NCBI GenBank assembly: GCA_943359485.1
Contig: CALRHR010000001.1
Span: 51,141 to 115,140 of the forward strand
Origin: Candidatus Nomurabacteria bacterium
GTDB lineage: Bacteria; Patescibacteriota; Minisyncoccia; Phycocordibacterales; UBA9973
Direction: 5' to 3'
DNA length: 64,000 nt
The number at the start of each line of letters is the position of its first letter. Position 1 is the stretch's first letter. Both the position numbers and the translations under genes were made by a program. The notes under the pieces were generated by a model. It was not told where the DNA came from. It was given only the letters and a program-made list of their open reading frames with translations, and did no database searches. Below are positions 3,122-62,133 of this stretch, piece after piece.

Positions 3122-3697
3122 ATGAGGGGACAAATACTTTTAAAGGCTCTGGAAGTGCTCACAGATTGCGCATTGACTCAAGTTGATTTTATTGAGGCAG
3201 TGCTTGCGAGTGGTTACGGGGCGGGTTTAGGGAAACTTGATTATGAATTTAGAAAAAGGCGAAGTGTAAGAGAGCGGGCAAATCTCAGAGAAGAGTATAA
3301 AACAGAACGCCGAAGGAGATTACAAAATTTTTTATACCAGATGAAACATGACGGATTGCTGGATGCTACTAAAGATAATAAATTGACCGTTTCTATAAAA
3401 GGAAAACAAAAAATAAAGGAACTAAAAAATAAATTACCTGGGCGTTACTACCTTAAAACAAAGACAACACAGATCACCATCATTAGTTTTGATATACCAG
3501 AGAAATTAAGGAGAAAGCGAAACTGGTTACGGGAAGTGATTAGGAATCTTGGGTTTAAAATGATACATCAGAGTGTTTGGATGGGGAAAAACAAAATCCC
3601 TGCAGAATTCATAGAGGATCTTGAGAACTTAAGAATTTTGGAATATGTTGAGATTCTGGAAGCTACTAAGAGCGGAAGTTTGAAGAAATTGGTATAA
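3122..3697 (+). CDS. PaaX-like regulator with Cas2-fold C-terminal domain (paralogue 1)
   Basis: ITIISFDIPEKLRRKRNWLREVIRNLGFKMIHQSVWMG matches the PaaX_C/Cas2-like beta-alpha motif. A paralogue lies at 32676-33221. Confidence 0.6.
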   Translation: MRGQILLKALEVLTDCALTQVDFIEAVLASGYGAGLGKLDYEFRKRRSVRERANLREEYKTERRRRLQNFLYQMKHDGLLDATKDNKLTVSIKGKQKIKELKNKLPGRYYLKTKTTQITIISFDIPEKLRRKRNWLREVIRNLGFKMIHQSVWMGKNKIPAEFIEDLENLRILEYVEILEATKSGSLKKLV

Positions 3698-11565: not shown

Positions 11566-12534
11566 ATGGCAAATAGGCACCTTTCAAGATCAATAGTGCT
11601 TCAGACTCTTTTTGAGTGGGATTTCTTGCTTGCCTCGCAGAAGCAGAGCGAAGGCGGGCCTGCAGAAAAAAAGGGTGCAAATTCTCGGGCTGGCCAAATT
11701 AAAGAAATATTAAATAAAAATCTAAAAGAATTTGCTTCCGGACTCGAGGATGATAATTTTGTTTTATCTCTCATTGACCAAGTATTGGAAAAACAATCCA
11801 AAGTTGATGAAATCATAGAAGCATCCGCACCAGACTGGCCAATAGACAAGATTTCTGTGGTGGACAGAAATATCCTGCGAATTGGGTTGACGGAGCTTCT
11901 TTTTGGTGACAGGTCGCAGGTGCCTCCGAAGGTGGCGATAAATGAAGCCATAGAATTGGCAAAAACTTTTGGCGGAGAAAATTCCGGTAAATTTATAAAT
12001 GGCGTGCTTGGCTCAGTTTATAAGGAGATAGGCTCTCCGGGCAAGGAACAAATTAGTAAAAATACATATGCTGATAAGCCACTCGACATCTCAGAACTTC
12101 CAGTAGAAAAAAAGGGCGGAGCGTTGGTTTATACTAAAGGAGAAGATGGTCAATTTTTATTGGCTTTAGTGCATGATGTTTTTGGTTACTGGACTATATC
12201 CAAGGGAGGTATTCTAAATGAAGAAAATGAAAGAGAGGCGACAAAGAGAGAAATAAAAAAAGAAATTGGAATCGACATAGAGATAGAAAAAAAACTTGGA
12301 GAGAATGAATATGTGGCTTCTCACCCATCCAAGGGAAAAAGTTTAAAAAAAGTAGTTTACTTTTTGGCATATAGCGAGTATAAAGAGTTGGTGCTCGAAA
12401 AGTCGAGCGGACTAGACGGGGCCAGGTGGTTTGAACTTTCTCTTATACCAGAATTGCGTATATATAACGACATCATTCCACTTATCAGTAAAGCAGTCGA
12501 AATACTGGGTAGTGAAAAGTCACAAAGTTTATAA
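11566..12534 (+). CDS. nusB: NusB antitermination factor fused to a C-terminal Nudix hydrolase domain
   Basis: The N-terminus is NusB-like ([13 protein letters not shown]...[27 protein letters not shown]). The C-terminus has a near-consensus Nudix box, [23 protein letters not shown]. Confidence 0.75.
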
Positions 12535-12550
12535 AGTAGAAAGTAATAAA

Positions 12551-13258
12551 ATGACAAATAAAACAACAGATCTCGCAGATTTTGAGAAAAAAATAAAAAT
12601 AATTTTTAAAGACAAAAATTTACTTAAGCAGGCTTTCATTCATCGTTCTTACATTAATGAAAACACCGGCACAAAACTTTCACACAATGAAAGGCTTGAG
12701 TTTTTGGGTGATGCCGTGCTAGAGCTCATTGTCACCGACTTTTTGTATAAAAAATATCCGAGCTATACCGAAGGGGAACTGACGGCTCTGCGTTCGGCCT
12801 TAGTCAATGCCGTTATTATTTCTGAAATGGCTCTTGCTGTCGGTATGAATGATTATTTGTTTTTATCAAAGGGTGAATCCAAAGATAACGGCAAAGCAAG
12901 GCAATACATTTTAGCAAATACCTATGAAGCATTTATTGGGGCTTTGTATTTAGATCAGGGTTATGATGCGGTGGATAAATTTGTTTACAAAACTTTACTT
13001 GGCAAGACAGATGAAATAGTAAGTAAAAAACTTTGGCGTGACGCCAAGTCTTTGGTACAGGAACGAGCGCAAGAATTTGTAAATGTTACGCCTGCATACA
13101 AAGTTCTATCCGAGTCTGGCCCTGATCATGACAAGCATTTTACTGTTGGTATTTATTTCGGGCTTAATTTAATTGCTCAGGGTAAAGGTAAGTCTAAACA
13201 AGAAGCCGAGCAGAAAGCAGCCGAAGCTGCCCTAAAGGTGAAGGATTGGATGGATTAA
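12551..13258 (+). CDS. rnc: ribonuclease III
   Basis: The signature ERLEFLGDAVLE is present, followed by a C-terminal dsRBD (GPDHDKHFTVGIYF...GKSKQEAEQKAA). Confidence 0.92.
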   Translation: MTNKTTDLADFEKKIKIIFKDKNLLKQAFIHRSYINENTGTKLSHNERLEFLGDAVLELIVTDFLYKKYPSYTEGELTALRSALVNAVIISEMALAVGMNDYLFLSKGESKDNGKARQYILANTYEAFIGALYLDQGYDAVDKFVYKTLLGKTDEIVSKKLWRDAKSLVQERAQEFVNVTPAYKVLSESGPDHDKHFTVGIYFGLNLIAQGKGKSKQEAEQKAAEAALKVKDWMD

Positions 13259-13277: not shown

Positions 13278-15413
13278 ATGCGGCTTAAACATCTCGAACT
13301 AAATGGTTTTAAATCTTTTGCTCAAAAAACAGTTTTGGAATTTGAGACTCCAGTTGTGTGTGTAGTTGGACCAAATGGTTCTGGAAAATCAAATGTAGTG
13401 GAGGCATTTCGTTTTGTCTTGGGTGAGCAGTCTATGAAGTCTATGCGTGGTAAATCCGGCCTAGACCTTGTTTTCAAAGGTTCAAAAAATTTACCGAAAG
13501 GTAGCCGAGCGAGTGTATCTATTTATTTCAATAACCCTGATAAAGTTTTTAAGCTTGAAAATGACGGTGGGGAAAATATAAATTTAAATTACGATACTAT
13601 CAGTATTTCCCGTGAAGTTTATATAGATGGACGGAATATTTACACTTTAAATGGTAGCGAAGTTCGTTTGAAAGATATTCATCAGCTTCTTTCTTCGGTT
13701 AACATAGGCGCAAGTGGGCACCATATCATTTCGCAAGGTGAGGCCGACAGAATCTTGAATGCAAATCCGAAAGAGAGGAAAGAAATGGTGGAAGACGCAT
13801 TGGGGCTGAAAATTTATCAATATAAGATCAAGGAGAGTGAGCGCAAGCTTGAGCGAACAAATACAAACATGAAAGAAGTGTCGATGTTGCGACGAGAAAA
13901 TGCTCCGCATCTTAATTTTTTAAAAAAACAAGTAGAAAAATTTGAAAAGGTAAAAGAAATGCAGGCTGAGCTTGCAACTCTTTACATGGAGTATCTGGGG
14001 AAAGAAAATGTTTATTTAGAAAAAGCAAAGAAAAATCTCTTACTAGAAAGAAAAAATATTACAAGTGAGCTTGAGAGTGTAACCAAAAAAATCTCTGAGA
14101 CTAAAGAAGAAAAGGAAAATAAAAAAATAGAAGAATTAAAAATAGTTGAGTCAAAATTAAACGAACTTCGCTTACAAAAAGGTGAACTAGAACGAAAACT
14201 TGGTCGCATTGAGGGAATACTGGAAGCTAAAGAGCACAAGGTTAATCTTGCTGGCAGGTGTCCTTTGTGTGGCAGTGTTATCAAGAAAATAGATCCGGAA
14301 CAGATAGAAAAAAAAGACCACGAAGAAAAAGAATTAGCTGAATTGAAAAATTCGCAAGTGGAGATTCTTGCTCTGATTGAAAAAATAAAAATCGAAGAAG
14401 ATATGCAGTTGAGTTTTGTTGAAAAGTTGAAAACAGAAATAAATCAAGAAATGGAAGCCTTGCGAGACCTGGAGCGAGAAAAGTTTACCTGGAAAGTTAG
14501 AAATCAAGAGCTTCATTCTGCCCTCGATCTTTTACTTATAAAAGAAGGGAATTTGAAAGTGCGCACGGAGTCTTTTGAAAATGAAATCAAGGAAGGTGTG
14601 GCTCTGGTGGGGCAAAACATTTTGGCTTTTCGTAACTCTGTTATTTCAGCCGACACATTGGACATAAATGAGGTTGAGCAGACAGAACTCAAGAAAAGAA
14701 TCGAACGGTTAAAAATAAAATTAGAAGACGCGGGTCTTAGTAACGGGGCTGAACTGATAAAAGAATTTGAAGATATGTCGCAGAGGGATCTATTTTTAGC
14801 GAAAGAGCTCCTCGATCTTACTAAGAGCATTGAGTTCTTAGAGAAACTAATTGCAGACTTGAAAGAAAAAATTGATAAAGAGTTTAAAGAAGGAGTAAAA
14901 AAAATAAATGTGGAATTTCAAGAATTCTTTACACTTCTCTTTGGTGGGGGACACGGCGCGTTAGCTATTGTGGTAGAAAACAAAAAGAAGAGACGGAGTG
15001 AGGATGAATCTCTCGAAATCTCTCGAGATGATTCTACTGAATCAGATATTGTTTTTGAACAGGGGATCGAGATCAATGTTTCGCTTCCGCGCAAAAAAGT
15101 TAAAGAACTACATGCATTGTCCGGAGGGGAACGGTCACTCACATCTATTGCACTCCTTTTCGCTATGTCGCAAGTCAATCCACCACCATTTTTAGTACTA
15201 GACGAAACAGATGCTGCGCTTGATGAAGCGAATTCGCGTAAATATGGCGATATGCTGGAGAAACTTTCCAAAAGTTCCCAACTTATTGTTGTGACTCACA
15301 ATCGTGAGACTATGTCTCGCGCTGGAGTGATTTATGGGGTGACCATAGGGAGGAACGAAGCCTCCAAGCTTCTCTCTGTTAAATTCGATGAAGCTGCCGC
15401 GATTGCAAAATAA
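13278..15413 (+). CDS. smc: SMC-family chromosome segregation ATPase, short (711 aa), hinge replaced by a CPLCGS motif
   Basis: SMC-type head: Walker A GPNGSGKSN, ISQGEADRIL, signature LSGGERSLTSIALLFA and Walker B FLVLDETDAALD. It has long coiled coils and sits in rnc-smc synteny. Confidence 0.8.
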   Translation: MRLKHLELNGFKSFAQKTVLEFETPVVCVVGPNGSGKSNVVEAFRFVLGEQSMKSMRGKSGLDLVFKGSKNLPKGSRASVSIYFNNPDKVFKLENDGGENINLNYDTISISREVYIDGRNIYTLNGSEVRLKDIHQLLSSVNIGASGHHIISQGEADRILNANPKERKEMVEDALGLKIYQYKIKESERKLERTNTNMKEVSMLRRENAPHLNFLKKQVEKFEKVKEMQAELATLYMEYLGKENVYLEKAKKNLLLERKNITSELESVTKKISETKEEKENKKIEELKIVESKLNELRLQKGELERKLGRIEGILEAKEHKVNLAGRCPLCGSVIKKIDPEQIEKKDHEEKELAELKNSQVEILALIEKIKIEEDMQLSFVEKLKTEINQEMEALRDLEREKFTWKVRNQELHSALDLLLIKEGNLKVRTESFENEIKEGVALVGQNILAFRNSVISADTLDINEVEQTELKKRIERLKIKLEDAGLSNGAELIKEFEDMSQRDLFLAKELLDLTKSIEFLEKLIADLKEKIDKEFKEGVKKINVEFQEFFTLLFGGGHGALAIVVENKKKRRSEDESLEISRDDSTESDIVFEQGIEINVSLPRKKVKELHALSGGERSLTSIALLFAMSQVNPPPFLVLDETDAALDEANSRKYGDMLEKLSKSSQLIVVTHNRETMSRAGVIYGVTIGRNEASKLLSVKFDEAAAIAK

Positions 15414-22103: not shown

Positions 22104-22267
22104 GTAAAGTATAAATAATTTTTAGAGCAAAGATTGAACTCTAACGAATCCAACAAAAATAATACGAATCGTAACATCCAAGGGTCGACGATGCAAAGCA
22201 TCGGAGATACTGAGGAGCGAAGCGACGAATGTACTGTTTTTTGTTTTGTTTCGTTCTAATTAACTTT

Positions 22268-23910
<1,643 letters not shown>

Positions 23911-24138
23911 TTGAAAACTATCCCGGTCCTCTTCGGAGGGCTGAGTGTCAGACCCGTTCTGACCGGATTTATTGAGTCGGTATTGTGTCGCTCAATTGAC
24001 GACACAATAGTTTTTGCTCAAACTTAAAATGAGCTAGACTATATGGAAAGACATATAAAATAAAAAAGTTTCAGCCTTCGGGCTGATCCGCCTCTGGCGG
24101 AAAAAAGGAACGAAACAAAACAAAGGACAGTAACAAAA

Positions 24139-32675: not shown

Positions 32676-33221
32676 ATGCGTAATAGGATTGATTATAAAA
32701 GAATTATTTTAACGACGGTTGCAACTGCAGGAATTTTAGCGGTGGCGGTTCTTGCACCGAATGTCCTGCAAGTTCTAAAGCCTTTTTTAAAGCAAAAGAA
32801 AAGATATAACCTTAAATACTATTTAAATCAAAAAGCAAAGAAACTTATAAAAAATGGTTTTCTTAAAATAGGCACTGAAGACGGGAAACAATTTTTATCG
32901 CTCACAGAAAAAGGAGAGTCTAAATTGAAATTTTATAAGGTTATAGAAAAAAAGAAAAATATTAAATGGGATGGCAAATGGAGGGTAGTTATTTTTGATG
33001 TATGGGAAAAAGCCAGATCAAAAAGAGATCTTTTACGCATGGAAATTAAAAATTTTGGATTTATCCAGCTCCAGCAAAGTGTATGGATTTATCCTTATCC
33101 GTGCGCAGAATTCATTGAGCTTTTAAAGGCAGATTTATCTTTTGGTAAAAATATTAGATATATGGTTGTGGAAAAATTAGATCACGATGAGAATTTGAAG
33201 AAAAAGTTTGGTTTTGGGTAA
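32676..33221 (+). CDS. PaaX-like regulator with Cas2-fold C-terminal domain (paralogue 2, N-terminal TM helix)
   Basis: WDGKWRVVIFDVWEKARSKRDLLRMEIKNFGFIQLQQSVWIYPYP. Confidence 0.6.
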   Translation: MRNRIDYKRIILTTVATAGILAVAVLAPNVLQVLKPFLKQKKRYNLKYYLNQKAKKLIKNGFLKIGTEDGKQFLSLTEKGESKLKFYKVIEKKKNIKWDGKWRVVIFDVWEKARSKRDLLRMEIKNFGFIQLQQSVWIYPYPCAEFIELLKADLSFGKNIRYMVVEKLDHDENLKKKFGFG

Positions 33222-47013: not shown

Positions 47014-47034
47014 TGTCAAAGGCGGGCTTTGACA
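47014..47034. repeat. REP hairpin TGTCAAAGGCGGGCTTTGACA
   Basis: A perfect palindrome that overlaps both the gyrA stop and the last codons of the RAYT ORF. Confidence 0.8.
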
Positions 47035-47642
47035 TCAAAATTCAGTGTTTGCTCTATAAAGTTTTTAGTGTCTCCAAAAGTTTCCAGTAAGAATTCTTTA
47101 CTAACTATTGGCAAGTTTCGGTCTGATGCATAATCATTATAACTACCCCACTGATATTCTTTTGGATGTTTCACTAATCCATCTTTTACTGGATTCATGT
47201 GAATATAAGATGATGTCCACATCAGCTGAGGATCGCCTTTAATAAGTACTGCCTTAAATTTGTCTTGAAAAACATGCCCAACTTTTTTATATTTTTTATT
47301 AATGTATCTAGAATAACTAGTACAAAGTTTTAACATTAATTTTGAAATTGGCATGTCTACAATTTGTTCAATTAGAAAATGGAAGTGGTTTGGCATCAGA
47401 CAAAAAGCATACAAATTAAAAGCCCCTTTTTCCATTTTAGTTATCCTGATTCTAGAGTAGGGTAGGGCAGTTAATTTTTCTTTGTTTAATTCTTCTTCAG
47501 TAAATCCCAAAGACAGTCCCAGTCTAAAGAGGAAAGCTCTATAATCCTGCTCATCGAAAAATATCTTCTCCTTATTATTGCCACGATTATAGATGTGATA
47601 AATACCACCAGGAGCAAATTCTTTAAAGTCTCTATTATTCAT
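47016..47642 (-). mobile_element. REP-associated tyrosine transposase (RAYT, IS200/Y1 transposase family)
   Basis: IYHIYNRGNNKEKIF...FCLMPNHFHFLIE...YIHMNPVKDGLV matches the HUH plus Tyr pattern. REP hairpins flank it. Confidence 0.8.
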
Positions 47643-59810: not shown

Positions 59811-59895
59811 TGGTGCTGGAGGGGGGACTCGAACCCCCAAGCCTTGCGGCACTAGTTCCTAAGACTAGCGCGTATACCAATTCCGCCACTCCAGC
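59811..59895 (-). tRNA. tRNA-Leu (anticodon UAG), CCA encoded
   Basis: The reverse complement reads GCTGGAGTGGCGGAATTGGTA...CTAGT-CTTAGGA-ACTAG, then a long variable arm, GGGGGTTCGAGTCCCCC and CTCCAGCACCA. Confidence 0.9.
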
Positions 59896-60036
59896 GTCTT
59901 TTCAAATATACTTCGTATTTGAAATTTCGATTCACGAAACCGACGCTGGAGTGTCGGCCTCCTCACTTTGTTCGGATGAAAAATAAAGCAGTTTATTTTT
60001 CATCCACTCCAGCTTCTAAAGTGCTCATGCACTTTG

Positions 60037-60109
60037 TGCGTCCAGAAGGGATCGAACCTTCGACCTTATCCTTAAGAGGGATCTGCTCTACCAGCTGAGC
60101 TATGGACGC
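60037..60109 (-). tRNA. tRNA-Lys (anticodon CUU)
   Basis: The reverse complement reads GCGTCCATAGCTCAGCTGGTAGAGC...CTCTTAA...GAAGGTTCGATCCCTTCTGGACGCA. Confidence 0.9.
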
Positions 60110-60251
60110 AAATATATTCAATTTTAAAACAAGACTTTACCATTAATAATCTTTCGACCTACCAAAACAGCTATGGACGCAAATATATTTAATTTTTAAA
60201 CAAGACTTTACCACCAACAATCTAACGATTTACCAAAACAGCTAAGGGCGC
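60098..60251. repeat. 71-bp tandem repeat duplicating the tRNA-Lys upstream region plus the first 12 nt of a tRNA
   Basis: AGCTATGGACGC occurs at 60098 and 60169, and AGCTAAGGGCGC at 60240. The intervening ~59 nt are about 85% identical by eye. Confidence 0.75.
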
Positions 60252-60292
60252 ATGTTTAATTTTCTAAAATAATTACAAATTTATAATTATTC

Positions 60293-60377
60293 TGGTGCTC
60301 GGGATGGGAGTCGAACCCATACCCCTTACGAGATTCGATTTTAAGTCGAACGCGTATACCAATTCCGCCACCCGAGC
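60293..60377 (-). tRNA. tRNA-Leu (anticodon UAA), CCA encoded
   Basis: The reverse complement reads GCTCGGGTGGCGGAATTGGTA...TTCGA-CTTAAAA-TCGAA, then a long variable arm, ATGGGTTCGACTCCCAT and CCCGAGCACCA. Confidence 0.9.
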
Positions 60378-60570
60378 AGTTGTCTAAGTCTAACTGAAAA
60401 AAGTATTTTTTTCAATCCCTATTTACAGATTACATATCAGGTTATATAATATTCAGATGAGTATGGAAACTTCCGATCCCCAACTATCATTAGGAAATTC
60501 TGAGCTCTTGGAAGACCTAAAGTCACTCGTTGCTAAAAGATTATAAAAAATGAGATAGTATATTATTTAT

Positions 60571-61089
60571 ATGTCGGAAAAACTATTCAAAAGTGTCCCT
60601 AGTGCAGTTATTGAGAGAACTGAAATGGGTATGGTGGGACAAGTAAGAGAACTCGTAAGATTGATTCTTTGGGATAAAGTTCTGCGCGATAAACTTGTAG
60701 ACAATCCAATTGGAAAAGAAGGTCTGGATGCACTCAAGAGGCTCGGCAAAAATTTTTCTATTGTTCTTGCGGATAGTGTCCCCGTCTTAGGATCCGTTGT
60801 TCATTGGAGTGCAGATGTCTTAAAATTATCAAAACATGATGCAACTCCGGATGTTTCCAAATTAACAGCATGGGGAGCAAATATAATTGATGTATTAACT
60901 CTTGATACTATTCCCTCATATTGGATTCAAGCAGCTCTTCAATTGAGAAAAGATCTACCTAAGCTTCAGGCATTATTGAAACTTATTCAGAAGATACGCA
61001 CAGAAGAGATGGAAGATTATGAGGAAAATCAATCTCAAGTTGATGGTGCAATAAGAGTTTTTGGCACCGAAGAAAGAGATGAAAAATAA
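60571..61089 (+). CDS. hypothetical protein
   Basis: A 172-aa ORF. TATATT (60559-60564) lies 6 nt before the ATG. Confidence 0.5.
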   Translation: MSEKLFKSVPSAVIERTEMGMVGQVRELVRLILWDKVLRDKLVDNPIGKEGLDALKRLGKNFSIVLADSVPVLGSVVHWSADVLKLSKHDATPDVSKLTAWGANIIDVLTLDTIPSYWIQAALQLRKDLPKLQALLKLIQKIRTEEMEDYEENQSQVDGAIRVFGTEERDEK

Positions 61090-61092
61090 AAT

Positions 61093-61323
61093 ATGGATAA
61101 AAAAGAAGCTTTAAAAATACTTATAGAACACAGTTTTGTCTTCACTAAAGATGTGCAAGAAAAATTGATTGCGGGTATTCCCGCTATGACTTTGCGAGAT
61201 GTTGATGCTCTGGGCAAGCTTTTAGCGTCACTAAAACAAAAGAGTATTATTTCTTATGATGCTGACATGAAGAAAATAAATCAAATGATTTTGGTGGTTG
61301 AAAAAGAAAAGGGAAGTGTCTGA
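61093..61323 (+). CDS. hypothetical protein
   Basis: A 76-aa ORF lying 3 nt after the upstream stop. Confidence 0.45.
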   Translation: MDKKEALKILIEHSFVFTKDVQEKLIAGIPAMTLRDVDALGKLLASLKQKSIISYDADMKKINQMILVVEKEKGSV

Positions 61324-61341
61324 TGTTTTTCTGTTTCTTTG

Positions 61342-61413
61342 AGGCGTGGGTGGGAATCGAACCCACGCATGTCGGTTTTGCAGACCGAAGCGTTACCATT
61401 TCGCCACCACGCC
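61342..61413 (-). tRNA. tRNA-Cys (anticodon GCA)
   Basis: The reverse complement reads GGCGTGGTGGCGAAATGGTAACGC-T-TCGGT-CTGCAAA-ACCGA...GTGGGTTCGATTCCCACCCACGCCT. Confidence 0.88.
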
Positions 61414-62133
61414 TTTTAAATGAAAATCGATTATTTTTCTAATTTTCCTATCAACAACCTTTGGTCGTAATTCAAAGTAGTTATTGAATATTTTAAATTT
61501 TCGCATAAAAAATGAATTAATGCTAGTGCCTTTGTATATTAGTTTGAATATTTGTAGAGAATCTTTTGTGTTGTATATTGCTTGGAAAGATCTCTTACTT
61601 GAATAAATTTTACCTTCTTTAATCCCAATTTTTCTAAAAACATGATTCATTTTTTCAAGAAATATTTTACTACCACTAGTAAATATCACACGAACCCTTT
61701 TTATTATTAATTTTTGGGTTTTACCTTTGGTTTGTGCAAAGTGAACACATCCATCTCCATCAAAATATCCCCTCATAAAATGACCTAAGTATTTTTGTGG
61801 AACTTTTGGGAACTTTATAGTTAGAGATTTGTTTGGATATAGACCTAATCTAAAAAGGTCATTGTATATTTTATGACTACCTATTCTTAACGCAAAGCAA
61901 ACTTTTCCTCTGATAAAATTCGACCTTTTCTGGTTTGTTTTGTGTTCTGAACCCAACCATGTTTTTATTCTTTCTATGGAATCTTTATCTGTGCTAGCTA
62001 TTTGGATATATTTACCACGCATATAAGGTGAATCATCCAAACTTCCATCAGCATAAATATATCCCAAAACATAGGCCATATTCGGGGACCATTTTTCGAA
62101 GAATTTTTCATTAACTTTATATTTTATTCCCAC
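61393..62133 (-). CDS. LAGLIDADG-family homing endonuclease-like protein (double motif)
   Basis: Two motifs are present: LGYIYADGS and MRGYFDGDGC. The start is GTG with TATAAT 6 nt upstream. The last 21 nt overlap tRNA-Cys. Confidence 0.75.
   Translation of the reverse strand: MGIKYKVNEKFFEKWSPNMAYVLGYIYADGSLDDSPYMRGKYIQIASTDKDSIERIKTWLGSEHKTNQKRSNFIRGKVCFALRIGSHKIYNDLFRLGLYPNKSLTIKFPKVPQKYLGHFMRGYFDGDGCVHFAQTKGKTQKLIIKRVRVIFTSGSKIFLEKMNHVFRKIGIKEGKIYSSKRSFQAIYNTKDSLQIFKLIYKGTSINSFFMRKFKIFNNYFELRPKVVDRKIRKIIDFHLKGVVAKW

What the first reader, a model, noticed from the sequence alone, without database searches (positions are those of the whole stretch)
13278..15413. SMC orthologue with the hinge replaced by a Rad50/SbcC-type CxxC hook motif
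The head is unmistakably SMC-type: MRLKHLELNGFKSF, GPNGSGKSN, VLGEQS, QGEADRIL, LSGGERSLTSIALLFA and LVLDETDAALD. The gene sits in the classic rnc-smc position.

However, it is only 711 aa and has no globular hinge. Near the middle of the coiled coil, at Cys328 (nt 14259-14276), the helix-breaking sequence AGR-CPLCGS appears.

C-P-x-C-G is the pattern of the zinc hook that dimerises Rad50/SbcC arms. An SMC head with hook-type apex dimerisation would be an unusual hybrid architecture for the chromosomal condensin.
Basis: partly seen in the sequence, partly recalled or inferred. Interest (0 to 1): 0.6.

Follow-up and report, generated by a model that had tools for sequence, protein, structure and literature searches.

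The report
Hinge-less bacterial Smc with zinc-hook apex
This is the chromosome-organising Smc protein of a tiny candidate-phyla-radiation (CPR) bacterium; it has arms about half the usual length, lacks the normal hinge domain, and carries at its tip a conserved Cys-Pro-x-Cys-Gly motif like the zinc hook of the DNA-repair protein Rad50, a combination so far reported only in engineered Smc proteins in the literature I could search.

Summary
ORF 13278-15413 (+) encodes a 711-aa protein with a true Smc-type ATPase head, directly downstream of rnc. It has no hinge domain, and CPLCG (aa 328-332) sits at the turn between two long helices.

It belongs to a large Paceibacteria family of natural "mini-Smc" proteins (about 690-780 aa, arms of roughly 160-180 aa). 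All sampled members lack the hinge, and in 72 of 80 species genomes the gene sits in the same rnc-smc position.

The family has two discrete apex types:
- Most members have a Cys-less module of about 55-68 aa with two short helices.
- The query's clade (127 proteins plus 21 species loci) has G[RK]CPxCG instead, with both Cys, the Pro and the Gly invariant.
- A second, separate clade (Vogelbacteria-like) has K.CxYCGQ.

The apex profile weakly matches the P. furiosus Rad50 zinc hook (E 0.004; Pfam PF04423 just below threshold).

The most likely mechanism is that two protomers share a metal ion through four Cys to join the arm tips, doing the hinge's dimerisation job. Engineered B. subtilis Smc(zinc-hook) chimeras show this can work.

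Metal binding, ScpAB partners and the absence of a second canonical Smc were not testable here.

The parts
12551..13258 (+). rnc (RNase III), immediately upstream of smc. The mechanical ORF starts at 12431 (TTG); the probable start is Met at 12551.
   Evidence: Pfam Ribonucleas_3_3, Ribonuclease_3 and dsrm hits. There is a 19-nt gap to smc. rnc is directly upstream of the Smc gene in 72 of 80 related species loci and in L001 and L003.
13278..15413 (+). smc: a 711-aa hinge-less mini-Smc with a CxxC apex.
   Evidence: SMC_N scores 206 bits spanning aa 3-696. TIGR02168 SMC_prok_B scores 484 bits (cutoff 567). The best PDB match is the B. subtilis Smc head 5xg3, E 3e-72.
13278..13808 (+). N-terminal head lobe (aa 1-177), with Walker A GPNGSGKSN (nt 13368-13394) and Q-loop QGEADRIL (nt 13734-13757).
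   Evidence: Aligns to B. subtilis Smc residues 1-206.
13809..14249 (+). Ascending arm: helices aa 178-274 and 282-324. It includes the family-wide KLGRIEG motif (nt 14196-14216).
   Evidence: AF2 secondary structure, pLDDT about 76-92 over most of the arm. G309, R310, E312 and G313 are invariant.
14250..14294 (+). Apex turn (aa 325-339) carrying the putative metal hook CPLCG (aa 328-332, nt 14259-14273).
   Evidence: This is the only non-helical break at the fold-back point in the AF2 model. C328, P329, C331 and G332 are invariant. The profile hits Rad50 hook structures 1L8D (E 0.0042) and 6ZFF (E 0.0083). PF04423 hits on family members are below threshold.
14295..14837 (+). Descending arm: helices aa 340-444, 446-453, 465-485 and 490 onward. 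The breaks around aa 445-489 are consistent with an Smc joint. The boundary with the head (about aa 520) is approximate.
   Evidence: AF2. aa 475-565 align to the head-proximal coiled coil of B. subtilis Smc. The top fold hit is 5XEI, an Smc head with coiled coil and joint.
14838..15410 (+). C-terminal head lobe (about aa 521-711). Features: signature LSGGE (nt 15117-15131), Walker B FLVLDE (nt 15189-15206), D-loop TDAALD (nt 15207-15224), H-loop VVTHN (nt 15288-15302), and a family-specific charged insert at aa 569-593 (nt 14982-15056).
   Evidence: The insert has pLDDT below 50.

Best explanation
The gene is the chromosomal Smc (condensin) orthologue of a Paceibacteria (Nomurabacteria-like) CPR bacterium.

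Shown:
- It has a complete Smc-type ABC ATPase head and head-proximal coiled coil.
- It lacks the region corresponding to the distal half of each arm and the whole hinge of canonical Smc. What remains is arms of roughly 160-180 residues, about half those of B. subtilis Smc, folding back at a 15-residue turn.
- In this clade the turn carries an invariant G[RK]-C-P-x-C-G motif.

Inferred:
- Each protomer offers only two Cys at the tip, and many family members have no other Cys at all. A tetrahedral metal site would therefore need two protomers.
- The two arm tips of an Smc homodimer would be joined by a shared Zn2+ (or another thiophilic metal), as in the Rad50/SbcC zinc hook. This would supply the constitutive dimerisation that the hinge normally provides.
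- The ATP-driven head engagement cycle, presumably with a kleisin, would work as in Smc-ScpAB.
- Sister lineages probably solve the same problem with a Cys-less two-helix apex module, which is the likely ancestral state in this family.
- The hook is a later replacement, and it appears in at least two separate clades with different sequence flavours.
For: Smc identity:
- TIGR02168 scores 484 bits, against 58 and 54 bits for Rad50 models, 40 for RecN and 33 for SbcC.
- The best PDB sequence hits are bacterial Smc heads.
- The best Foldseek hit is 5XEI, an Smc head with joint, at E 4e-18.
- All ATPase motifs are intact.

Positional orthology:
- The arrangement ThrRS(-)-L32/NusB-rnc-smc is the same in the window, in hook-type L001 and in Cys-less L003.
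- rnc is directly upstream in 72 of 80 species loci.
- B. subtilis smc also lies next to rncS (strain and plasmid list in PMC5344682).

Architecture:
- There is no hinge hit.
- AF2 shows helices 178-324 and 340-555 flanking the turn at 325-339.

Hook conservation:
- Exactly one CxxC at the apex in 120 of 120 nearest homologues.
- The same in 21 of 21 hook-type species loci.
- Exactly 2 Cys in the apex segment of 156 of 156 hook-type proteins. In 84 of them these are the only Cys in the protein.

Second hook clade:
- A separate clade with CxYCGQ accounts for 41 of the 120 proteins listed for P0183 (the query itself included). Its members are 689-726 aa, with one at 771 aa.

Similarity to Rad50 beyond CxxC:
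- GRCPLCGS aligns with GKCPVCGR of 1L8D, which is the top PDB hit for the apex fragment.
- The apex profile gives E 0.0042 (1L8D) and 0.0083 (6ZFF) over about 48 positions.
- PF04423 scores 22.7 bits (cutoff 24.3) on a clade member.

Functional plausibility:
- B. subtilis Smc with its hinge replaced by the P. furiosus Rad50 zinc hook supports normal growth.
- Shortened Smc arms work in discrete length classes, and natural arm lengths have a minor mode at 163 aa (PMC5344682 sections 8 and 12).
Against: - No experiment or multimer model shows metal binding or dimerisation. The AF2 monomer is of moderate quality (mean pLDDT 67, heads poor).
- Similarity to the Rad50 hook is statistically marginal. 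The query's own apex fragment does not hit PF04423. The better-scoring C2H2 zinc-finger matches show that CPxCG alone is a common zinc-knuckle pattern.
- Close positional orthologues do without any Cys, so the hook is not essential to the family's function.
- ScpA and ScpB were not found in the window or in 878 kb of smc neighbourhoods. A second, canonical Smc elsewhere in the genome could not be excluded.
- The score is below the TIGR02168 equivalog cutoff, and NCBI annotates these proteins only as 'AAA family ATPase'.
Confidence: 0.62

Rival explanations
1. It is the Smc orthologue, but the CxxC is not the dimerisation element. It would be a rigid zinc-knuckle-like or beta-turn cap, or a docking site for DNA or a partner protein that supplies the other metal ligands. 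The arms would be held together along their length (rod) or by other contacts.
For: - Cys-less orthologues exist with nearly identical heads and arms (head identity 0.843 against 0.844 within the hook group). Tip chemistry therefore varies freely in this family.
- CPxCG is a generic zinc-knuckle motif, as the C2H2 and zinc-ribbon hits show.
- In the Lamassu protein LmuB, CxxC copy number varies between 0, 1 and 2 (PMC12663957).
Against: - With only two Cys, and no conserved His or additional Cys nearby, no intramolecular tetrahedral site is possible.
- An Smc homodimer brings two identical tips together.
- The Rad50 hook is the only PDB match in which the coiled-coil flanks align as well as the motif.
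Confidence: 0.17
2. The CxxC is a redox element. It would form an intramolecular or intermolecular disulfide that links or regulates the arm tips, rather than a metal site.
For: - CPxC resembles thiol-disulfide oxidoreductase active-site patterns (my own knowledge, not tested here).
- No metal evidence is available.
Against: - The protein is cytoplasmic and comes from organisms of largely anoxic habitats.
- The motif context, G[RK]CPxCG[KR]EL, matches the Rad50 hook (GKCPVCGREL in 1L8D), not a thioredoxin fold.
- The flanks are coiled coil.
Confidence: 0.06
3. It is not the condensin but a repair or defence SMC-like ATPase of the RecN, SbcC/Rad50, Lamassu LmuB or MADS type, and merely resembles Smc.
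For: - The short length and the CxxC are typical of 'CxxC SMCs' (PMC12663957).
- PADLOC gives mad3 at 205 bits and LmuB at 101 bits.
- The score is below the TIGR02168 cutoff.
Against: - The Smc equivalog model scores 484 bits, against 33-58 bits for Rad50, RecN and SbcC.
- The PADLOC scores are no better than the generic SMC_N score of 206 bits.
- The neighbours are housekeeping genes with conserved rnc-smc synteny. No nuclease (SbcD/Mre11), LmuA/LmuC or methylase gene is adjacent.
- There was one locus per genome among the 80 species genomes returned.
Confidence: 0.05
4. It is an assembly or gene-calling artefact, or a decaying pseudogene of a full-length smc.
For: None beyond the unusual length.
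Against: More than 500 independent full-length homologues of 690-780 aa come from NCBI, JGI, ENA and Logan assemblies. Their heads are about 84% identical and their ATPase motifs are invariant.
Confidence: 0.01

Closest known systems
Bacterial Smc of the Smc-ScpAB condensin (e.g. B. subtilis Smc; TIGR02168)
   Same: - Head sequence and fold.
- All ATPase motifs.
- Head-proximal coiled coil and joint.
- rnc-smc gene order.

   Different: - No hinge domain.
- Arms of about 160-180 aa instead of about 344 aa.
- A CxxC turn at the apex.
- Total length 711 aa against 1186 aa.
- The score falls below the equivalog cutoff (484 against 567 bits).
- ScpAB partnership was not shown.
Engineered B. subtilis Smc(Zh) chimeras and Mini-Smc (Buermann et al. 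2017, PMC5344682); cohesin/Rad50 hook-hinge swaps (PMC6969161)
   Same: - An Smc head and arm joined at the tip by a Rad50-type zinc hook.
- Shortened arms in a discrete length class.
- The chimera supports normal growth on rich medium.
   Different: - Those proteins are laboratory constructs using the P. furiosus hook.
- Here the architecture is natural and conserved across a clade, and the hook shows only marginal sequence similarity to Rad50.
Rad50/SbcC zinc hook (PF04423; PDB 1L8D, 6ZFF)
   Same: - A C-P-x-C-G motif at the apex of an antiparallel coiled coil.
- Flanking residues are similar (G[RK]CPxCG[KR]EL).
- The profile gives E 0.004-0.008.
   Different: - The head is Smc-type, not Rad50-type.
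- There is no adjacent Mre11/SbcD.
- The Pfam hit is below threshold, and absent for the query itself.
- The hook probably arose inside the Smc lineage rather than being inherited from Rad50.
Archaeal ASRP family (ClsN/coalescin, Sph1/2; PMC9389158)
   Same: SMC-related chromosome-organising ATPases with short arms and a zinc-hook motif instead of a hinge.
   Different: - ASRPs are archaeal and a separate family.
- The NF045487 model scores only 45 bits (cutoff 300), against 484 bits for bacterial Smc.
Marine 'hinge-less SMC' clade (Sussfeld et al. 2025, PMC12153180)
   Same: A true-Smc-like head with a coiled coil and no hinge, found in uncultured bacteria.
   Different: - That clade is reported as actinobacterial.
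- It is explicitly reported to lack the CXXC motif.
- The CPR family and its hook variant are not described there.
Lamassu LmuB (PMC12663957)
   Same: A short SMC-like ATPase whose CxxC hook is gained or lost across its phylogeny, with 0, 1 or 2 copies.
   Different: - LmuB is a defence protein of SbcC descent and comes with LmuA/LmuC partners.
- Here the PADLOC LmuB score is only 101 bits and the gene context is housekeeping.

Membership tests
Bacterial Smc (Smc-ScpAB condensin) | SMC-type ABC ATPase head with Walker A, Q-loop, signature, Walker B, D-loop and H-loop, scoring best against Smc among SMC-superfamily models | tested here: met
   Motifs confirmed. TIGR02168 scores 484 bits against 58 bits or less for Rad50, RecN, SbcC and RecF. 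The PDB best hit is the B. subtilis Smc head at 3e-72. The Foldseek top hit is 5XEI.
Bacterial Smc (Smc-ScpAB condensin) | Globular hinge dimerisation domain (PF06470) in the middle of the protein | tested here: not met
   No PF06470 hit at E<=1. No precomputed hinge domain in about 480 listed relatives. AF2 shows only a 15-residue turn.
Bacterial Smc (Smc-ScpAB condensin) | Long antiparallel coiled-coil arm (about 340 aa per strand in B. subtilis; natural modes at 238, 341 and 515 aa, minor modes at 163 and 423 aa) | tested here: inconclusive
   A coiled-coil arm is present but measures about 147-182 aa per strand, with approximate boundaries. That is far from the canonical length and near the minor natural mode of 163 aa reported in PMC5344682.
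Bacterial Smc (Smc-ScpAB condensin) | Score at or above the NCBIfam equivalog cutoff | tested here: not met
   484 bits against a cutoff of 567. The match is in two stretches, and no hinge is detected anywhere in the protein. I infer that the missing hinge and distal arms explain the shortfall.
Bacterial Smc (Smc-ScpAB condensin) | Kleisin ScpA and ScpB partners encoded in the genome | not testable with these tools
   None found in the 64-kb window by Pfam or NCBIfam. None found with an ScpA N-domain profile in 878 kb of smc neighbourhoods. Whole genomes could not be read.
Bacterial Smc (Smc-ScpAB condensin) | Single chromosomal copy in conserved housekeeping context (rnc-smc) | tested here: met
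   rnc is directly upstream in the window and in 72 of 80 species loci. All 80 loci come from different assemblies. A distant paralogue elsewhere is not excluded.
Rad50/SbcC | CxxC zinc hook at the coiled-coil apex (PF04423) | tested here: inconclusive
   The motif and its position are met. The profile hits 1L8D and 6ZFF at E 0.004-0.008. PF04423 scores 22.7, 17.1 and 14.7 bits on three relatives, below the 24.3 cutoff, and gives no hit on the query fragment. Zn binding was not testable.
Rad50/SbcC | Rad50/SbcC-type head and an adjacent Mre11/SbcD nuclease | tested here: not met
   Rad50 models score 40-58 bits against cutoffs of 700-1087, and SbcC scores 33 bits. No metallophosphatase or SbcD gene was found among the window ORFs or in L001 and L003.
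Archaea-specific SMC-related proteins (ASRP/ClsN) | Match to the NF045487 equivalog; archaeal distribution | tested here: not met
   45 bits against a cutoff of 300. All relatives are Patescibacteria.
Lamassu LmuB / other defence SMC-like ATPases | Best match to a defence model, plus an operon with LmuA/LmuC or other effectors | tested here: not met
   LmuB scores 101 bits and mad3 205 bits, about the same as generic SMC_N. The neighbours are rnc, NusB, L32, ThrRS and glycolytic genes.
RecN | Match to TIGR00634 / PRK10869 | tested here: not met
   40 bits against cutoffs of 408-418.

The most novel reading that the evidence does not exclude
Paceibacteria carry a natural 'mini-Smc' as their only condensin ATPase. 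Three things would follow:
- The hinge and the distal half of the arms are dispensable in nature.
- The arm length falls in one of the discrete length classes predicted from engineered B. subtilis Smc.
- The tip-dimerisation module is an interchangeable cassette. A small helical module was replaced at least twice, independently, by a Rad50-like metal hook.

This would break the accepted split between 'hinge SMCs' (chromosome organisers) and 'CxxC SMCs' (repair and defence). It would also show that loop-extruding Smc needs only a constitutive tip link, not hinge-specific DNA or gate functions.
Probability: 0.45. Interest if true: 0.78.

Novelty: new variant of a known kind. Interest (0 to 1): 0.62.

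Why it matters
What the hinge contributes to SMC motor function is a long-standing question. Proposed roles include a DNA entry gate, DNA binding, and plain dimerisation. So far the evidence that a zinc hook can stand in for the hinge comes from engineered chimeras.

A large natural clade of true Smc orthologues would be an evolutionary experiment pointing the same way. These proteins have no hinge, half-length arms, and either a CxxC hook or a tiny helical tip. Evolution would have kept only a constitutive tip link and a particular arm-length class.

The family also gives compact, cysteine-poor natural Smc proteins that could suit structural and single-molecule work. In addition, it blurs the textbook division between hinge-type and CxxC-type SMC proteins.

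One practical consequence is that annotation pipelines currently label these proteins only as 'AAA family ATPase'. Surveys that locate SMCs by their hinge, such as the arm-length survey in PMC5344682, would miss them.

Tried and rejected
1. Search for ScpA/ScpB, SbcCD, RecN or a second Smc.
   - Pfam on 48 window ORFs and NCBIfam on 10 unannotated ORFs found none.
   - An ScpA N-domain HMM, built from PDB sequences returned, found nothing in the window or in 84 loci totalling 878 kb.
   - This says nothing about the rest of the genomes.

2. Whole-genome paralogue check.
   - It was not possible, because the tools return at most 10 kb of flank.
   - The genome scan used family-specific peptide patterns, so it would not have picked up a distant canonical Smc.

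3. Hook monophyly inside the near clade.
   - NJ with bootstraps intersperses seven Cys-less sequences among the hook-type ones.
   - Raw identities show a star-like radiation (H-H 0.844, H-N7 0.843).
   - I therefore rejected any claim of repeated switching inside that clade. I keep only the claim that the Nomurabacteria-like and Vogelbacteria-like hook clades are separate (0 of 100 bootstraps for joint monophyly, 85 of 100 for the query clade plus Cys-less sisters).

4. C2H2 zinc-finger hits.
   - They have better E-values than Rad50.
   - I rejected them as summed short CPxCG repeats with no coiled-coil flank.

5. PADLOC mad3 at 205 bits.
   - I rejected it as a generic SMC_N-type match, equal to the Pfam SMC_N score.

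6. Fold search of the full model.
   - It cannot isolate the apex and informs only on the head and joint.

7. Krishnan et al. 2020, the ABC ATPase classification.
   - It could not be read, so a prior mention there cannot be excluded.

8. Regex anchor measurement of apex size.
   - It is noisy, with some anchors mis-picked. I used it only for the bimodal trend.
Full report
**Observation.** The ORF at 13278-15413 (+) encodes 711 aa. The protein has three cysteines only: C28 in the head, C328 and C331. RNase III lies directly upstream (ORF 12431-13258, probable start 12551), separated from smc by 19 nt.

**What the head is.**
- Pfam SMC_N matches aa 3-696 at 206 bits, and there is no SMC_hinge hit even at E<=1.
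- In NCBIfam the bacterial Smc equivalog TIGR02168 scores 484 bits in two stretches. The cutoff is 567. I infer the shortfall reflects the missing middle of the protein, because no hinge is detected.
- Rad50 models score 40-58 bits, the archaeal ASRP model 45, RecN 40 and SbcC 33.
- The best solved-structure sequence matches are bacterial Smc heads (5xg3, 3zgx; E about 1e-72). The alignments cover the N-lobe, the head-proximal C-terminal coiled coil and the C-lobe.
- A Foldseek search with the AF2 model ranks 5XEI first (Pyrococcus Smc head with coiled coil and joint; E 4e-18). Condensin and cohesin heads follow, and Rad50 ranks lower.
- PADLOC defence models score no better than the generic SMC_N level (mad3 205 bits, LmuB 101 bits).
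- I conclude the head is Smc, not Rad50, SbcC, RecN or LmuB.

**Architecture.**
- AF2 on a 50-sequence alignment gave mean pLDDT 67. The heads are poorly modelled and the arms are good.
- It predicts helices 178-274 and 282-324, a non-helical turn at 325-339 containing CPLCG (328-332), then helices 340-444, 446-453, 465-485 and 490-555.
- Using the B. subtilis alignment to place the head boundaries, each arm strand is roughly 160-180 residues. This is my estimate. B. subtilis arms are 344 aa.
- Buermann et al. report natural Smc arm-length modes at 238, 341 and 515 aa, with minor modes at 163 and 423 aa.
- Their pipeline located arms between the head and an aligned hinge, so hinge-less proteins would have been dropped (PMC5344682).

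**The family.**
- The 120 nearest homologues are 70% or more identical and 706-740 aa long. They come from Nomurabacteria, Paceibacterota and Parcubacteria MAGs. All have exactly one CxxC, as G[RK]CP[LTM]CG, at the same position.
- C328, P329, C331 and G332 are invariant in an alignment whose mean column identity is 72%.
- An exhaustive search of 1.84 billion cluster representatives changed the picture.
  - The best 150 hits (42-69% identity) are all short: 147 are 643-782 aa and three are truncated (428-584 aa).
  - Only 7, plus one fragment, have an apex CxxC.
  - The other 143 have none, many have no cysteine at all, and their median length is 747 aa.
- In these Cys-less proteins the apex holds a conserved insert of about 55 aa.
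- AF2 of the nearest Cys-less cluster (P0121, 64% identical to the query) predicts this insert as two short helices (337-356 and 363-375) between loops, at modest confidence.
- The P0121 family is also Nomurabacteria, Paceibacterota and Minisyncoccia, and 119 of 119 members lack CxxC.
- A scan of GTDB species-representative genomes found 329 relatives, and the best 80 were kept.
  - All 80 come from different assemblies.
  - 21 are hook-type (701-724 aa, one cut at a contig end).
  - 59 are Cys-less (741-772 aa, apart from two truncated gene calls).
  - rnc is directly upstream in 72 of the 80.
- Measured between conserved anchors on both sides, the apex segment is bimodal: median 90 residues for hook-type and 126 for Cys-less. 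Hook-type proteins have exactly two Cys in that segment (156 of 156). Cys-less proteins have none in 149 of 151.

**Orthology.** The order ThrRS(-)-L32/NusB-rnc-smc is shared by three sources: the window, a hook-type relative on an 813-kb contig (L001), and the Cys-less P0121 locus (L003). The two apex types are therefore positional orthologues, not paralogues. The rnc-smc adjacency also matches the B. subtilis rncS-smc-ftsY locus (construct list in PMC5344682).

**Evolution.**
- I built head-only NJ trees rooted on the B. subtilis Smc head sequence printed.
- The query's hook clade is recovered in 84 of 100 bootstraps. It groups with Cys-less sisters (P0121, P0273, P0281, P0359) in 85 of 100.
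- All hook-bearing sequences together are never monophyletic (0 of 100). Fitch parsimony puts the Cys-less state at the root.
- The more distant species loci (about 50% identity) are all Cys-less. Their helical modules follow one recognisable pattern. So the helical module is best read as ancestral in this family and the hook as derived.
- Inside the near clade the radiation is star-like.
  - Head identity is 0.844 hook-hook, 0.843 hook-Cys-less and 0.838 Cys-less-Cys-less.
  - NJ cannot resolve the hook group.
  - I make no claim about repeated switching there.
- The last homology search showed that a distant hook cluster (P0183, Vogelbacteria) heads a second clade.
  - Its 36 closest relatives (rows 2-37 of the hit list) all carry a hook.
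  - In all, 41 of the 120 listed proteins do, at 48-64% identity among the relatives.
  - The flavour is distinct, K.C[P/x]YC[G/A]Q[IV][IV]P. Their lengths are 689-726 aa, with one at 771 aa.
  - All Cys-less hits in the list are 732 aa or longer.
- Two origins, or a transfer of the apex between lineages, is therefore moderately supported.

**Is the hook Rad50-like?**
- The 76-aa apex fragment has P. furiosus Rad50 hook 1L8D as its best PDB match, aligning GRCPLCGS with GKCPVCGR. At E=0.15 this is not significant.
- A profile of 11 apex fragments hits 1L8D at E 0.0042 and 6ZFF at E 0.0083, over about 48 positions including the coiled-coil flanks.
- C2H2 fingers score better in that search, but only by summing repeated short CPxCG matches.
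- Pfam Rad50_zn_hook gives sub-threshold hits on three family fragments (22.7, 17.1 and 14.7 bits; cutoff 24.3) and none on the query's own fragment.
- In clade members the resemblance extends to G[RK]CPxCG[KR]EL, against GKCPVCGREL in Rad50.
- This fits either convergence on the same structural solution or an old transplant. It does not establish homology.

**Mechanism.**
- Shown: an intact Smc ATPase head, a half-length antiparallel arm, no hinge, and an invariant two-Cys turn at the tip.
- Inferred: the two Cys of each of two protomers coordinate one metal ion and tie the arm tips together, replacing hinge dimerisation.
- Three points support the inference.
  - There are only two candidate ligands per chain.
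  - The motif context is Rad50-like.
  - B. subtilis Smc with the P. furiosus zinc hook in place of its hinge supports normal growth, and its arm truncations follow the same length pattern as those of hinge-bearing Smc (PMC5344682 section 12).
- The Cys-less sisters imply that the tip link can be made in another way, probably by a helical bundle. That part is speculative.

**Comparison with the literature.**
- The accessible literature describes the following:
  - engineered hook-hinge swaps (PMC5344682, PMC6969161);
  - archaeal ASRP/ClsN proteins with hooks (PMC9389158);
  - a marine hinge-less SMC clade that explicitly lacks CXXC (PMC12153180);
  - variable CxxC copy number in Lamassu LmuB, together with the stated dichotomy between 'Hinge SMC' and 'CxxC SMC' (PMC12663957).
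- Eight full-text searches found no description of a natural bacterial Smc with a hook, or of CPR condensin architecture.
- Krishnan et al. 2020 could not be read.

**Limits.**
- Metal binding and dimerisation are untested.
- ScpAB was not found, but only the smc neighbourhoods could be searched.
- A second, canonical Smc elsewhere in these genomes cannot be excluded with these tools.
- The trees are NJ on 383-645 columns.
- The AF2 models are of moderate quality.

**Verdict.** This is a real and conserved feature. It is a new natural variant of Smc, part of a wider hinge-less mini-Smc family in Paceibacteria.

Noticed in passing
L003:10001-12253 (P0121) and 59 of the loci L005-L084; no counterpart in the window: Most Paceibacteria Smc orthologues are hinge-less and hook-less. 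Their apex is a conserved, Cys-less module of about 55-68 aa, predicted as two short helices (AF2 of P0121: 337-356 and 363-375, pLDDT 50-65). How these proteins dimerise at the tip is unknown.
   Followed up: partly
P0183 and P0396-P0430 etc.: A second hook clade (Vogelbacteria-like) has a different motif flavour, K.C[P/x]YC[G/A]Q[IV][IV]P. It accounts for 41 of the 120 proteins listed for P0183 (689-726 aa, one at 771 aa). This suggests an independent origin or a transfer of the hook.
   Followed up: partly
window 22266-23911 (+): A 16S rRNA gene spans 1646 nt against a 1533-position model, implying about 110 nt of insertion. No 23S rRNA was detected anywhere in the 64-kb window, so the 23S gene is not adjacent to the 16S gene.
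   Followed up: no
window 11566-12534 (+): A single ORF fuses NusB and NUDIX domains. The same fusion sits upstream of rnc in L001.
   Followed up: no
window 3122-3697 (+) and 32676-33221 (+): Two ORFs carry a PaaX_M / Cas2-like domain. Two more occur near smc in L001. This small protein family recurs in these genomes.
   Followed up: no
window 47016-47642 (-); L003:7807-8484: An IS200-like Y1 transposase gene lies next to gyrA. A related Y1_Tnp gene sits between ThrRS and L32 in the Cys-less relative's locus.
   Followed up: no
window 61393-62133 (-) and 61341-61413 (-): A LAGLIDADG-domain ORF has its 3' end overlapping tRNA-Cys. It lies in a cluster of four tRNA genes at 59811-61413.
   Followed up: no
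window 14982-15056 (aa 569-593 of Smc): A family-specific, highly charged insert (KKKRRSEDESLEISRDDSTESDIVF) lies in the C-terminal head lobe. It is variable in sequence among relatives and has pLDDT below 50.
   Followed up: no
L006, L008, L011 and many other loci: Many MAG records titled 'uncultured Candidatus Saccharibacteria bacterium' encode Smc proteins 50-74% identical to Nomurabacteria ones. They share the same rnc-smc context, so the record titles are probably not reliable taxonomy.
   Followed up: no
window 13278-15413 and its relatives: NCBI annotation calls nearly all of these proteins 'AAA family ATPase', because they fall below the Smc equivalog cutoff. JGI calls them 'chromosome segregation protein'. 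The family is in effect missing from Smc surveys based on hinge or equivalog hits.
   Followed up: partly
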